DNA of 64,000 bases. Source: Accumulibacter sp. Its GTDB lineage: Bacteria; Pseudomonadota; Gammaproteobacteria; Burkholderiales; Rhodocyclaceae. The translations under genes were made by a program, and so were the position numbers. The notes below the pieces were generated by a model. The model searched no databases, was not told where the DNA came from, and was given only the letters and a program-made list of their open reading frames with translations. Shown here piece after piece: positions 56,130 through 58,843 of the stretch. The first letter of the stretch is position 1. Each line of letters begins with the position of its first letter. The stretch lies in NCBI RefSeq assembly GCF_029255125.1, contig NZ_JAPUVR010000098.1, forward strand, positions 6,927 to 70,926, read 5' to 3'.

Positions 56130-56581
56130 CGACGTACAAACGGCCAGTTTCGGTACTCGTCGTGATTCACACGCCAGACCTGCAGGTGCTGCTGCTCGAG
56201 CGCGCGGCACACGCCGGATATTGGCAATCGGTCACCGGCAGCCAGGAAGCCGGCGAAACCTTGCTCCAGACGGCACAGCGTGAAATCGCCGAGGAAACCG
56301 GCATCGATGCCGATCCGGCGGCTCTGCTCGATTGGCAGTTCACCAACACCTACGAAATCTTCGCCGAGTGGCGACAGCGCTATGCGCCGGGCGTGACGCA
56401 CAACATCGAACACGTGTTCTCGCTCGAGTTGCCGGCCGTCCAGCCCATCCGGCTGGCGCTCGCCGAGCACCGCGCTTACCGCTGGCTGGCGCAGCGCGAG
56501 GCTGCAGACAAGTGTTTTTCGTGGAGCAACCGTGACGCCATCCTCATGCTGAACGAGCGGCGTCGTCGTTCTCCCGACTAG
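56126..56581 (+). CDS. nudB: Dihydroneopterin triphosphate diphosphatase (Nudix)
   Basis: YKRPVSVLVV, WQSVTGS, Nudix box AQREIAEETG, NIEHVF, FSWSN; GTG overlaps the barstar stop. Confidence 0.93.
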   Translation: MTTYKRPVSVLVVIHTPDLQVLLLERAAHAGYWQSVTGSQEAGETLLQTAQREIAEETGIDADPAALLDWQFTNTYEIFAEWRQRYAPGVTHNIEHVFSLELPAVQPIRLALAEHRAYRWLAQREAADKCFSWSNRDAILMLNERRRRSPD

Positions 56582-56747
56582 ACTTCTCGGTCAGGCAGTC
56601 CGGGCAGTAACAACTGCCGCCGGGCAGCGGGGCAAGCGCCAATGGCGGTCGCTGCATGCACCAGCACGACACCAGACCAGCGGCAGCGCCACACACGAAG
56701 CTTGCGCCGCAGGCGCTACAGATGCTGCGCAGTACTTCTTCCGACAC
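56544..56747 (-). CDS. Cysteine-rich CWC family small protein (8 Cys)
   Basis: CSACGASFVCG..CWC..CYCPDCL; RBS AAGGAA before GTG, 23 nt after the DUF2063 stop. Confidence 0.75.
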   Translation of the reverse strand: MSEEVLRSICSACGASFVCGAAAGLVSCWCMQRPPLALAPLPGGSCYCPDCLTEKSSRENDDAARSA

Positions 56748-56770
56748 GACCCGATTCCTTTCCTTTGCGT

Positions 56771-57535
56771 TCAATCGCGCGCCAGCAGACCCTCGTCCAG
56801 CCACTGCCCGAGAACAGCGACGACGCTGTGCACAGCCGCCGCATCGCCGTCCTCGGCGAGCAGCGAACAGCATTCGGCAAACGTGGCACCATCGGCCAAG
56901 GCACGCAAGGCAGCGCCTTCCCGATTATCCGCCGATCGCCATAAACAGTCGAGCTTGCGGCGCCAGACGAGCAGCGTGTGCGCCAAGCGCTGCGGCGCCT
57001 CGGTGGCCACCCCCGGATCGTTGTTGAGCGCATGCCAGACGGGTTCGACGCGCCATTCGAGATCGACCATCTGCAGCGACGGCACCAACCGGTAGCGCCG
57101 GTTGGGCCACTCCTCCGGTGCCAGTGCGATGAGTTCGTGACGCGTCAGGCACGGCGCATCGGCGGCGTCGAAAGCCGCCCGCATCGCCCAGTCCATGCGC
57201 GCCAGGTCGACCAGAGCCGGATGCGGCAATGGCTCGCTGGTGCGGCTCAGGTCGTCGACGAGCGAATCGCCAAACCAGCGGATAGAGCGCTGGCGCGAAG
57301 GATGCGCGTCGATGTAGGCGCTCGCCAGCGCGGCAAAGGCATCGTCGCCAAGCGCACGCAACAGAACCGGAAAGTTGTCGCGCAAAGCGGCCGTCAGACG
57401 GGCGCGGTAGGCCGCACGATAGACATCCAGGCCGCGCGCGGATCGTTGCGCCGCACCAGCGAGCAGGTCAGACGCCGAAGCGTCGACCAGAATGGCCGCC
57501 TGCAAGCCGTTTTCGATCGTCGCGAGCGAATTCAT
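56771..57535 (-). CDS. DUF2063-family MNIO partner protein (BufC/HvfC-like)
   Basis: [27 protein letters not shown]; [10 protein letters not shown]; overlaps the DUF692 stop (ATGA). Confidence 0.85.
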
Positions 57536-58371
57536 CGCGCCAGCTCCCTTTGCCCCAGACTGCGCTCGGCAAGCTCGCGCGCACACGCCAGCTCACCGAT
57601 CAGCAGCGCGAGCGGCGGAATGTTGTCGTCACGCTCGATCATCGTCGGCACCGCTCCGATCCGTCTGAGCGCGTAGGCATAGAGATCCCAGACCGCCTGG
57701 CATACCGGCTGATCGTGTGTATCGATCAGGATGTCAGGGTGCGTTTCGTGCCCGGCCAGGTGGATCTGACGTACGGCTGCCGGCGGTATCGCATCGATGA
57801 ACGTGCGTGCGTCGAAACCGTGATTGATGCTGCTCACATAGACATTGTTGATGTCGAGCAGTAGTTGGCAATCCGTGCGCGCGACCAGTTGGCCGATGAA
57901 CTCCCATTCGCTCATCTCGTCGGCAGTGAACGAAACGTAGCTCGAAACATTTTCCAGGACGAGCCGGCGGCGAAGAAATTCCTGCACCTGATCGACGCGT
58001 GCCGTCAGGTGCCGCAGCGCCTCCGCCGTGTACGGCAGGGGCAGCAGGTCGTGCAGGTTCACCCCGGCAACCCCGGTCCAGCACAAGTGATCGGATACCC
58101 AGGCCGGTTCCAGCCGCTCGACCAGCGCCTTGAGCTGTCCCAGATAGGCCGGATCGAGCGCGTCGAGGCTGCCGATCGACAGCGAGACACCATGCATCAC
58201 CATCGGATAATCGCGCCGAATCTGCTCGACGAAATGGAGCGGCTTGCCGCCCGCCACCATATAGTTCTCGGAGATGATCTCCAGCCAGTCGACCGGCTGC
58301 CTGGCGGCGATGAAATCGCCATAATGATCGGTGCGCAGGCCGAGACCGAACCCGGCAATCGCTTCGCTCAA
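57532..58371 (-). CDS. DUF692 multinuclear non-heme iron oxidative enzyme (MNIO; BufB/HvfB/MbnB family)
   Basis: [68 protein letters not shown]; RBS GAGGAG before TTG 58371. Confidence 0.93.
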
Positions 58372-58404
58372 GACAAACTCCTCGCCAAATTCCGTGCGCA
58401 CACG

Positions 58405-58436
58405 ATGGTCGCCCGAAGTTCTCGCCGGGCGACCAT
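58405..58436. other. Perfect 11-bp stem-loop between RiPP precursor and DUF692 genes
   Basis: ATGGTCGCCCG-N10-CGGGCGACCAT. Confidence 0.75.
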
Positions 58437-58483
58437 GGCGTGCCGACTCACACTAGCTTGACCTGCTGATCTTGCTTGACGAC

Positions 58484-58744
58484 TTACTTGACGACCTTGC
58501 CACCGGCGTCAGTACATTCCTTGGCGCTGCCCTTGTTGACCCAGCCCTGGCCCTTACACGCATTCATTCCCTTGCACTCGCTCTTAGCCGTCTTGCATTC
58601 CGACTGGCCCTTGCAGGCGTTGATCCCGGCACAGTGAACGGCCGCGCTCTCGGCTGCGCTAACGCTCGGTACGACCAGCGTTCCGGCGGCAAAAAGGGCG
58701 GCGGCAGCGGTCGCGATGGCAACACCAGACATTTTGTTCGACAT
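58484..58744 (-). CDS. Secreted 6-Cys RiPP precursor (bufferin BufA2-like metallophore)
   Basis: Sec signal peptide ending VSAA; internal repeat [11 protein letters not shown] / [20 protein letters not shown]; immediately upstream of DUF692-DUF2063. Confidence 0.85.
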   Translation of the reverse strand: [86 protein letters not shown]

Positions 58745-58817
58745 GAGTTTCTCCTCGTAGTGTGGGGTGGAAGACGCCGAAGTCCGCAGCGAGCGGCGAG
58801 ACCTCCGACACTGCTTA

Positions 58818-58843
58818 GACGCACTCGCCGATCAATTGCTTAC
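58818..58843 (-). promoter_or_regulatory. Candidate ECF sigma promoter for the RiPP operon
   Basis: Minus strand GTAAGC-N16-CGTC, similar in layout to GTAACC-N16-CGAA of SigF/ECF16-type promoters. Confidence 0.5.

What the first reader, a model, noticed from the sequence alone, without database searches (positions are those of the whole stretch)
56544..58843. Bufferin-type MNIO RiPP cluster with a 6-Cys precursor, no DoxX gene, and a Cys-rich CWC protein in its place
Seen: a compact minus-strand operon of secreted precursor ([31 protein letters not shown]..KEC, six Cys, duplicated CxGxNACKGQ unit), DUF692 enzyme with intact metal-ligand motifs, overlapping DUF2063 partner, and an 8-Cys CWC peptide. 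Known: DUF692/DUF2063 pairs convert precursor Cys into heterocycles (oxazolone-thioamide in methanobactin, 5-thiooxazole in bufferins/oxazolins) to make Cu-binding peptides, and described bufferin operons usually include a DoxX (BufD) and a local ECF sigma/anti-sigma pair. Neither is in this locus. Inference: this is a variant metallophore system, relying on a trans-acting sigma factor and host disulfide machinery, or using the CWC protein as an accessory factor.
Basis: partly seen in the sequence, partly recalled or inferred. Interest (0 to 1): 0.75.

Follow-up and report, generated by a model that had tools for sequence, protein, structure and literature searches.

The report
Ordinary Buf2 bufferin operon in Accumulibacter
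This is a normal three-gene "bufferin 2" operon, which makes an exported copper-binding modified peptide, in a Candidatus Accumulibacter genome; the small cysteine-rich gene behind it is an older resident neighbour of the site, not a replacement for a missing gene.

Summary
The four minus-strand ORFs are real. They are BufA2 (six Cys, above the NCBIfam BufA2 cut-off), a BufB-type MNIO with all nine metal-ligand positions, a DUF2063 partner coupled by an ATGA overlap, and a small 8-Cys Cys_rich_CWC protein.

The "variant" reading does not hold.
- **DoxX:** the founding Caulobacter buf2ABC operon also lacks bufD/DoxX. In my survey of 65 bufA2-B-C loci, only 3 had a DoxX gene beside them.
- **Sigma/anti-sigma:** these genes are reported in Buf1 clusters, not in Buf2 clusters.
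- **CWC:** it lies tail-to-tail with nudB in every Accumulibacter genome examined, including 8 with no buf genes in front of it. The same holds in Propionivibrio, Zoogloea and Azoarcus.
- **Outside the genus:** none of 37 CWC-bearing genomes and none of 76 BufA2 loci pair CWC with an MNIO or buf cluster.

The buf cassette therefore sits next to a pre-existing CWC-nudB pair. CWC may be co-transcribed here, but nothing marks it as a bufferin accessory.

Two minor additions: a conserved ECF-type promoter motif (TGTAAG-N17-CGTCTAA) that is unique in this genome, and a stable hairpin after bufA2 that recurs across Buf2 loci.

Verdict: an ordinary new member of a known family, of low interest.

The parts
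58815..58844 (-). Conserved ECF-type promoter-like motif TGTAAGCAATT-N11-GCGTCTAA (read as TGTAAG-N17-CGTC), about 100 nt upstream of the bufA2 ATG
   Evidence: The motif is invariant in 10 of 10 Accumulibacter bufA2 upstream regions, within an otherwise poorly conserved spacer. It occurs once in the 3.83-Mb genome. It is also present at about -95 to -100 in two Rhodocyclaceae-type loci, against a background of 0.004 per 320 nt. Its function as a promoter is inferred.
58484..58744 (-). bufA2: 86-aa precursor with a Sec signal peptide (likely cleavage VSA|AE) and a core carrying six Cys. Four of them sit in Cys-Lys motifs (NACK, SECK, SECK, NACK).
   Evidence: NF050166 Cu_RiPP_BufA2 scores 95.3 bits, cut-off 60, covering profile positions 1-78 of 79. 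All six Cys are invariant in alignment A1. A GAGGAG ribosome-binding site lies 6 nt before the ATG.
58398..58443 (-). GC-rich stem-loop in the bufA2-bufB spacer with no U-tract; a candidate attenuator or mRNA-stabilising hairpin
   Evidence: The spacer folds at -46.9 kcal/mol, z = -3.17 against shuffles. Strong hairpins of different sequence occupy the same position in all 20 Buf2 loci folded; two of them carry U-tracts. The role is inferred.
57532..58371 (-). bufB: MNIO (DUF692) bufferin maturase, 279 aa from TTG 58371 (the longest ORF starts at GTG 58401, inside the hairpin)
   Evidence: NF050167 MNIO_BufB scores 392.8 bits, cut-off 310, and PF05114 scores 376 bits. The nine metal-ligand positions are conserved. 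TTG 58371 has the same GAGGAG-6 nt spacing as bufA2.
56771..57535 (-). bufC: DUF2063 partner protein (PME1 type), 254 aa, with its start overlapping the bufB stop (ATGA)
   Evidence: PF09836 scores 68 bits, cut-off 27.2. The ATGA overlap and an AAGGGAG ribosome-binding site are visible in the sequence. It is syntenic with BufB in 65 of 80 BufA2 loci.
56544..56747 (-). Cys_rich_CWC gene (67 aa from GTG 56747; 8 invariant Cys in the pattern CxxC-x5-C-x8-CWC-x15-CxCxxC; no signal peptide). It is a resident neighbour, probably not part of the bufferin system, though it may be read through from bufC.
   Evidence: PF14375 scores 29.5 bits, cut-off 24. The Cys, Trp and Leu are invariant. It is convergent with nudB in buf-minus genomes and in other genera. 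No terminator-like site lies between bufC and CWC.
56072..56581 (+). nudB (dihydroneopterin triphosphate diphosphatase), shown as context: the conserved convergent partner of CWC. Their 3' ends overlap by 38 nt.
   Evidence: NF006961 scores 212.8 bits, cut-off 103. The aspS-RNase-barstar-nudB block facing CWC is conserved.

Best explanation
The locus is a standard Buf2-type bufferin operon (bufA2-bufB-bufC; the 'Cys-Lys' captophorin group) in a Candidatus Accumulibacter genome.

Inferred mechanism, by homology to the characterised Caulobacter system:
1. In the cytoplasm, the iron-dependent MNIO BufB acts with its DUF2063 partner BufC.
2. Together they oxidise the four central Cys of BufA2 (C44, C50, C57, C63, each followed by Lys) to 5-thiooxazoles.
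3. The precursor is exported by Sec and its signal peptide is removed.
4. C38 and C77 form a disulfide.
5. The small folded product sequesters copper in the periplasm.

Transcription most likely starts at a conserved ECF-type promoter recognised by a sigma factor encoded elsewhere. A hairpin after bufA2 probably raises the precursor-to-enzyme transcript ratio.

The lack of DoxX and of local regulator genes is the normal Buf2 layout.

The downstream CWC gene is an older, independently conserved small cytoplasmic Cys8 protein, probably metal-binding, that is paired tail-to-tail with nudB. The buf cassette was acquired next to it in one Accumulibacter lineage and later lost in a sub-clade. CWC may now be read through from bufC but is not a dedicated bufferin component.
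For: - Family assignments exceed the curated cut-offs, and the BufB ligand motifs are intact.
- The operon is tightly built, with ribosome-binding sites and an ATGA overlap.
- Close homologues are already named 'BufA2 family periplasmic bufferin-type metallophore' in Accumulibacter records.
- Literature: buf2ABC lacks bufD; Buf2 shows a -18 Da shift, with CysI and CysVI unmodified and the central Cys at -4 Da each; it is copper-induced through SigF; DoxX is dispensable for Buf1 (PMC11626156). Sigma/NrsF genes are absent from Buf2 clusters (PMC12452194). BufA2 falls in the Cys-Lys captophorin group (bioRxiv 2025.11.18.689057).
- DoxX survey: 65 of 80 BufA2 loci are contiguous A2-B-C. DoxX lies directly downstream in 2 and upstream in 1.
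- CWC within the genus: it is single-copy in 23 of 24 other Accumulibacter genomes. It follows bufC in 13 of them, occurs in 6 genomes with no MNIO at all, and lies away from the MNIO in 4. It is always convergent to nudB.
- CWC in other genera: the same CWC/nudB/barstar/RNase/aspS block occurs without buf genes in Propionivibrio, Zoogloea and Azoarcus.
- CWC outside the genus: none of 37 CWC-bearing genomes in a class-wide sample has an MNIO near it. Among the 80 BufA2 loci, CWC appears only in the 4 Accumulibacter ones.
- History: the aspS tree needs only 2 changes to explain buf presence.
- Promoter motif and hairpin.
Against: - There is no experimental or expression evidence for this organism.
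- Thiooxazole chemistry, copper binding and induction all rest on homology to Caulobacter Buf2.
- The cognate sigma factor was not found. The genome has no NrsF, and no ECF-like sigma gene carries a similar upstream motif.
- CWC starts 23 nt after bufC on the same strand with no terminator between them, so co-expression, and hence some functional link in this lineage, cannot be excluded.
- The 80 surveyed loci are the best matches to my query and are biased toward Betaproteobacteria.
Confidence: 0.85

Rival explanations
1. One reading: this is a variant metallophore system in which the CWC protein replaces DoxX or serves as a dedicated accessory to BufB/BufC, for example in metal or electron delivery or in thiol handling.
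For: CWC is co-oriented with bufC, starts 23 nt after its stop, has its own strong ribosome-binding site, and no terminator intervenes. This arrangement is kept in 14 Accumulibacter genomes. Eight invariant Cys suggest a metal or redox cofactor.
Against: The CWC-nudB pair is equally conserved where buf is absent: in 8 Accumulibacter genomes and in Propionivibrio, Zoogloea and Azoarcus. Six Accumulibacter genomes have CWC but no MNIO at all. No CWC-MNIO co-location was found in 37 other genomes, and no CWC in 76 non-Accumulibacter BufA2 loci. DoxX is not normally part of Buf2, so there is no vacancy to fill. CWC has no signal peptide or membrane segments and is unlike DoxX.
Confidence: 0.08
2. 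The operon makes a Buf2-type thiooxazole peptide whose physiological target is not copper. The target could be another soft metal (Ag, Au, Hg, Zn) or oxidative or sulfur stress.
For: The literature notes MerC-bufferin fusions and possible roles with other metals (PMC12452194). This genome lacks the SigF/NrsF copper and heavy-metal regulator. No copper gene is adjacent; the nearest CusCBA-like efflux genes lie about 30 kb away.
Against: Both characterised bufferins are induced by Cu and not by Fe, Zn or Mn, and protect against copper (PMC11626156). The precursor is a close, full-length match to the BufA2 model.
Confidence: 0.1
3. The cluster is a decaying or silent remnant with no current function.
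For: The cassette has been lost in one Accumulibacter sub-clade. No cognate regulator was identified.
Against: All three ORFs are intact, with ribosome-binding sites and translational coupling. The ligand residues and all six Cys are conserved. The promoter motif is invariant across species whose flanking spacer has diverged. BufA2 is 77-98% identical across the genus.
Confidence: 0.03

Closest known systems
Bufferin 2 operon buf2ABC of Caulobacter vibrioides (CCNA_03001-02999); Buf2 / BUF_6/12Cys family, also called the 'Cys-Lys' group of captophorins
   Same: Gene order A-B-C, a Sec-signal six-Cys precursor with Cys-Lys motifs, a BufB-clade MNIO and a DUF2063 partner. There is no DoxX and no sigma/anti-sigma gene in the cluster, and control is presumably by a distant ECF sigma factor.
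   Different: The host is a betaproteobacterium, Ca. Accumulibacter. It has no SigF/NrsF pair, and the promoter motif is TGTAAG-N17-CGTC rather than GTAACC-N16-CGAA. An unrelated CWC gene abuts the 3' end.
Bufferin 1 operon buf1ABCD (DUF2282 precursor, BufD = DoxX, SigF/NrsF nearby)
   Same: The same enzyme pair and the same Cys-to-5-thiooxazole chemistry, giving a periplasmic copper-binding product.
   Different: The Buf1 precursor is a four-Cys DUF2282 protein, and the cluster includes DoxX and local sigma/anti-sigma genes. The window's precursor gives no Pfam DUF2282 hit.
Oxazolin/HvfABC and fontiphorin (EGKCG-repeat 'Lys-Cys' captophorins)
   Same: An MNIO plus DUF2063 pair acting on an exported Cys-rich precursor.
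   Different: The window's precursor has no EGKCG repeats. Its MNIO scores 272.6 bits on the HvfB model, below the 360-bit cut-off.
Pfam PF14375 Cys_rich_CWC, a family of uncharacterised small proteins
   Same: The window's fourth ORF carries the CWC motif and all eight conserved Cys at typical family length.
   Different: No function is known for the family. Here it happens to lie behind a bufferin operon, which is a genus-specific arrangement.

Membership tests
Buf2 (BUF_6/12Cys) bufferin gene cluster | Precursor with a Sec signal peptide and six conserved Cys that matches the BufA2 profile | tested here: met
   NF050166 scores 95.3 bits, cut-off 60, full length. The six Cys are invariant in A1. 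The N-terminal hydrophobic stretch with a VSA|AE site is read from the sequence.
Buf2 (BUF_6/12Cys) bufferin gene cluster | BufB-clade MNIO (DUF692) with the multinuclear-iron ligands | tested here: met
   NF050167 scores 392.8 bits, cut-off 310. H60, H95, E140, D173, N176, H204, D217, H219 and E246 lie in the motifs shared with 3BWW, TglH and MbnB.
Buf2 (BUF_6/12Cys) bufferin gene cluster | DUF2063 partner (BufC/PME1) encoded directly after the MNIO | tested here: met
   PF09836 scores 68 bits, cut-off 27.2, and the start overlaps the bufB stop as ATGA. I did not model the RRE-like C-terminal domain.
Buf2 (BUF_6/12Cys) bufferin gene cluster | Central Cys converted to 5-thiooxazoles, a CysI-CysVI disulfide, and copper binding | not testable with these tools
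   This needs LC-MS, UV, NMR and metal-binding assays. It is inferred from PMC11626156.
Buf2 (BUF_6/12Cys) bufferin gene cluster | Induction by copper stress through an ECF sigma factor | tested here: inconclusive
   A conserved ECF-like motif is present.
Buf1 (DUF2282) bufferin gene cluster | DUF2282 four-Cys precursor, usually with DoxX and SigF/NrsF genes | tested here: not met
   The precursor gives no PF10048 hit. The locus has no DoxX and the genome has no NrsF.
Oxazolin / HvfABC (EGKCG captophorins) | EGKCG-repeat precursor and an HvfB-type MNIO | tested here: not met
   The precursor has no EGKCG repeat. HvfB model NF003818 scores 272.6 bits against a 360 cut-off, and HvfC model NF050145 scores 34.9 against 142.
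Methanobactin (MbnABC) | MbnB-type MNIO with MbnC and an MbnA leader-core peptide | tested here: not met
   TIGR04159 scores 69.1 bits against a 325 cut-off. The partner is DUF2063 rather than MbnC, and the precursor carries a signal peptide.
Cys_rich_CWC (PF14375) | Small protein with the CWC motif and the conserved Cys pattern | tested here: met
   It scores 29.5 bits against a 24 cut-off. C10, C13, C19, C28, W29, C30, C46, C48 and C51 are invariant in 50 sequences.

The most novel reading that the evidence does not exclude
In the Accumulibacter lineage that acquired bufA2BC, the pre-existing CWC gene lost its own upstream region and became the fourth cistron of the ECF-controlled operon. 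It would then have been co-opted as a cytoplasmic Cys8 metal-binding (two-Zn or Fe-S) helper of BufB/BufC, for instance in iron loading or in protecting the precursor's thiols before export.
Probability: 0.08. Interest if true: 0.45.

Novelty: new member of a known kind. Interest (0 to 1): 0.15.

Why it matters
It adds little to bufferin biology. The cluster matches the published Buf2 archetype, and public records already name its Accumulibacter homologues as BufA2 family proteins.

It is of modest practical interest that many, though not all, Ca. Accumulibacter species carry a periplasmic copper-buffering peptide system. These are the key polyphosphate-accumulating organisms of wastewater treatment, where copper inhibition matters.

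Three by-products may help anyone working on bufferin regulation or on the uncharacterised CWC family:
- a lineage-specific ECF-type promoter motif;
- a hairpin after the precursor gene that recurs across Buf2 loci;
- the ancient CWC-nudB convergent gene pair.

Tried and rejected
1. **DoxX supplied in trans.** The genome's single DoxX gene (contig C136) sits beside an F420/NADP oxidoreductase-type gene, not beside buf genes. This says nothing either way, and DoxX is dispensable even for Buf1.

2. **SigF/NrsF regulator.** The genome has no NrsF.

3. **Finding the cognate sigma factor by autoregulation.** The TGTAAG...CGTCTAA motif occurs only once in the genome. None of the roughly 6 small ECF-like sigma genes, found with an ad hoc HMM, has a similar upstream motif. 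This remains unresolved.

4. **Classifying the gene after bufC by ORF calling.** This was too noisy in high-GC DNA. I replaced it with an ad hoc DoxX HMM on six-frame translations. I cross-checked that against the Pfam DoxX whole-genome search of 50 of the source genomes. Every DoxX hit I mapped back to the loci agreed (L055, L103, L109, L115).

5. **CWC structure.** The AlphaFold model from a 50-sequence alignment has mean pLDDT of only 67.7. Foldseek against the PDB gave nothing significant (best E = 2.1). The weak top hits are all PHD-type two-zinc fingers. This is a hint only, and I did not use it as evidence.

6. **Single-sequence homology search with the 67-aa CWC.** It found only 2 proteins, so I repeated it with an alignment.

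8. **Solved structure for BufC.** There was no sequence-level hit in the PDB.
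Full report
**What is there**

Four co-oriented ORFs lie on the minus strand between 56544 and 58744.
- The first ORF (58484-58744, 86 aa) has a hydrophobic N-terminus ending in VSA|AE. Its six Cys are at positions 38, 44, 50, 57, 63 and 77, within a duplicated C-x-G-x-N-A-C-K-G-Q unit.
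  - It matches the NCBIfam BufA2 equivalog over its full length: NF050166, 95.3 bits, cut-off 60.
  - It gives no Pfam DUF2282 hit.
- The second ORF scores 392.8 bits on NF050167 (MNIO_BufB, cut-off 310) and 376 bits on PF05114.
  - It falls below the cut-offs of the HvfB, ApyH, MbnB and ChrH models.
  - Alignments to the solved MNIOs 3BWW, TglH (8HCI) and MbnB (7DZ9, 7TCR) show the conserved motifs: H in MHGV, H in SDHL, E in LEN, D and N in LDINN, H in IHLAG, D and H in DTHD, and E in IERD.
  - In the window protein these are H60, H95, E140, D173, N176, H204, D217, H219 and E246. That these positions are the metal ligands is my own knowledge of the MbnB and TglH structures, not a tool result.
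- The third ORF is a DUF2063 protein (PF09836, 68 bits).
- The fourth is a Cys_rich_CWC protein (PF14375, 29.5 bits, cut-off 24).

**Gene starts and signals**
- bufA2 has a GAGGAG ribosome-binding site 6 nt before its ATG.
- The same GAGGAG-6 nt arrangement precedes TTG 58371. I therefore prefer this as the bufB start over GTG 58401, which lies inside a hairpin.
- bufC most likely starts at ATG 57535, forming an ATGA overlap with the bufB stop.
- The CWC ORF can be extended to an ATG at 56873, overlapping bufC by 103 nt, and public annotations do this (108-109 aa).
- GTG 56747 is preceded by AAGGAAAGGAA and gives 67 aa. This agrees with the 65-80 aa of nearly all family members.
- The CWC stop overlaps the 3' end of the convergent nudB gene by 38 nt.

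**The organism**

Close homologues of the precursor carry the names Accumulibacter or Candidatus Accumulibacter. Several are already labelled 'BufA2 family periplasmic bufferin-type metallophore'. The nearest genome record is Accumulibacter sp. SCELSE-14, with 98% identity.

**Is the missing DoxX and sigma/anti-sigma pair unusual? No.**
- The paper that defined bufferins states that the second Caulobacter operon, buf2 (CCNA_02999-03001), 'lacks a bufD1-like gene'.
  - It also states that both operons are controlled by SigF, which is encoded near buf1.
  - It further shows that DoxX is not needed for Buf1 modification or function (PMC11626156).
- My own survey used a BufA2 alignment to fetch 80 loci from one-genome-per-species contigs.
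  - 65 of them have contiguous bufA2-bufB-bufC.
  - DoxX lies directly after bufC in 2 of these (L103, L115) and directly before bufA2 in 1 (L109).
  - In L055 and L092 a DoxX belongs to a second, more distant MNIO cluster.

The 80 loci are the best matches to my query and so lean toward Betaproteobacteria. Even so, the direction of the result is unambiguous.

**Is the CWC gene an accessory? The evidence says it is a bystander.**
- Within the genus, PF14375 is single-copy in 23 of 24 other genomes.
  - In 13 of these, and in the window's genome, it lies about 1 kb downstream of the BufB gene.
  - Six genomes have CWC and no MNIO at all.
  - Four have their MNIO elsewhere.
- I fetched 14-kb regions to look at the surroundings. 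In every Accumulibacter genome examined, CWC is convergent with nudB at the end of a conserved DUF502-aspS-RNase-barstar-nudB block.
  - This includes eight genomes in which no buf gene precedes it and the upstream neighbours differ.
- The same CWC/nudB/barstar/RNase/aspS arrangement, without buf genes, is found in Propionivibrio, Zoogloea and Azoarcus.
- In a class-wide sample of 400 genomes, 38 carry CWC. In none of the 37 outside this genome is an MNIO gene near the CWC gene.
- Among the 80 BufA2 loci, an HMM of CWC orthologues finds CWC only in the four Accumulibacter loci.
- An aspS tree of 18 Accumulibacter genomes explains buf presence with two changes: one gain and one loss in a sub-clade. 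CWC-nudB stays put throughout.

The CWC-nudB pair is therefore older than the buf cassette, survives its loss, and is unrelated to bufferin clusters elsewhere.

One caveat remains. In buf-plus genomes CWC starts 10-60 nt after bufC with no terminator-like site between them. It is probably read through from the operon.

**What is CWC?**
- Eight Cys, one Trp and one Leu are invariant across 50 homologues, in the pattern CxxC-x5-C-x8-CWC-x15-CxCxxC.
- It has no signal peptide.
- An AlphaFold model is of only moderate confidence (pLDDT 67.7).
- Foldseek finds nothing significant. The weak top hits are all PHD-type two-zinc fingers.
- A small cytoplasmic protein that binds two Zn ions or an Fe-S cluster is a reasonable guess, but the function is unknown.
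- I found no literature on the family beyond one passing annotation.

**How the operon most likely works**

These steps are inferred by homology. None is shown for this organism.
1. BufB and BufC act on BufA2 in the cytoplasm.
2. By analogy with Caulobacter Buf2, the outer Cys stay unmodified and form a disulfide, and the central Cys each lose 4 Da. Here C44, C50, C57 and C63 would become 5-thiooxazoles, and C38-C77 would form the disulfide.
3. These four Cys sit in NACK, SECK, SECK and NACK motifs. That places the precursor in the 'Cys-Lys' captophorin group.
4. After Sec export, the folded peptide would buffer periplasmic copper.

**Regulation**

The 150-nt spacer upstream of bufA2 is poorly conserved among ten Accumulibacter species, except for an invariant TGTAAGYAATT-N11-GCGTCTAA.
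- Read as TGTAAG-N17-CGTC, it has the architecture of ECF sigma promoters. This is my own knowledge: B. subtilis sigma-X TGTAAC-N17-CGAC.
- For comparison, the Caulobacter sigma-F site is GTAACC-N16-CGAA (PMC3511200).
- The motif occurs once in the whole genome.
- It recurs at the same distance in two other Rhodocyclaceae-type Buf2 loci, against a background of 0.004 per 320 nt.
- The genome has no NrsF, and I could not identify the sigma factor.

A stable hairpin (-46.9 kcal/mol, z = -3.2) fills the bufA2-bufB spacer. Hairpins of different sequence occupy the same place in all 20 Buf2 loci I folded, and two of them have U-tracts. This fits the common RiPP design in which the precursor transcript outnumbers the enzyme transcripts.

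**Context**

The upstream gene is a PP2C phosphatase-Ser/Thr kinase fusion. It is not conserved next to buf in other species. A CusCBA-like RND efflux system lies about 30 kb away, which is too far to claim linkage.

**Verdict**

This is an intact, ordinary Buf2 bufferin operon in Ca. Accumulibacter: a new member of a known kind. The features flagged as unusual are either normal for Buf2 (no DoxX, no local regulator) or coincidental (the CWC neighbour). Earlier notes in this scan on other genomes likewise describe Buf2 operons as ordinary, one of them without DoxX and under a different ECF sigma. I did not test those notes and did not use them as evidence.

Noticed in passing
window 56544-56581: The 3' ends of the CWC gene and the convergent nudB gene overlap by 38 nt. 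Similar overlaps occur in Propionivibrio (29 nt) and Zoogloea (41 nt), and the genes are 11 nt apart in Azoarcus. This tail-to-tail pair is conserved across Rhodocyclales, which hints at a functional or regulatory link between CWC and nudB rather than between CWC and buf.
   Followed up: partly
window 58398-58443; L029-L063 bufA2-bufB spacers: A strong GC-rich hairpin directly after the precursor gene is present in all 20 Buf2 loci folded. The sequences differ but the position is the same, and two loci have U-tracts. It is a likely attenuator or stabiliser that sets the precursor-to-enzyme ratio. I found no mention of it in the bufferin papers I read.
   Followed up: partly
window 58815-58844: The ECF-type motif TGTAAG-N17-CGTCTAA is invariant upstream of bufA2 in 10 Accumulibacter species and unique in this genome. 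The cognate sigma factor was not identified, and the genome has no NrsF.
   Followed up: partly
window 55300-56129: A barnase-like secreted ribonuclease (PF00545) and a barstar inhibitor (PF01337) form an overlapping gene pair between aspS and nudB. The pair is conserved across Accumulibacter, Propionivibrio, Zoogloea and Azoarcus. The barstar ORF and the longest nudB ORF also overlap.
   Followed up: no
window 58898-60586 (-): A 562-aa fusion of an N-terminal PP2C phosphatase domain and a Ser/Thr protein kinase domain lies directly upstream of bufA2. It is followed by a hairpin plus T-run (about 58853-58891) that looks like its terminator. It is not conserved next to buf in other Accumulibacter species.
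   Followed up: no
window 21191-27103 (-) and 27898-29220 (+): A CusCBA-like RND efflux set (OEP, CusB-type HlyD_D23, AcrB family) lies about 30 kb from the buf operon. A TonB-dependent receptor (29180-31705) and a qNOR-type nitric oxide reductase (31986-34304) follow.
   Followed up: partly
window 56544-56873: Public records call the CWC gene as 108-109 aa from an ATG inside bufC (P0121, P0122). Family lengths of 65-80 aa and a strong ribosome-binding site favour GTG 56747 (67 aa), so the long form is probably a start-site over-call.
   Followed up: yes
L055 (Rhodocyclaceae MAG), L091, L092: Some genomes carry a second, more distant MNIO-DUF2063 cluster (43-45% identical to BufB) next to the Buf2 locus, divergent from it or in tandem with it. 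In L055 and L092 this second cluster carries DoxX.
   Followed up: no
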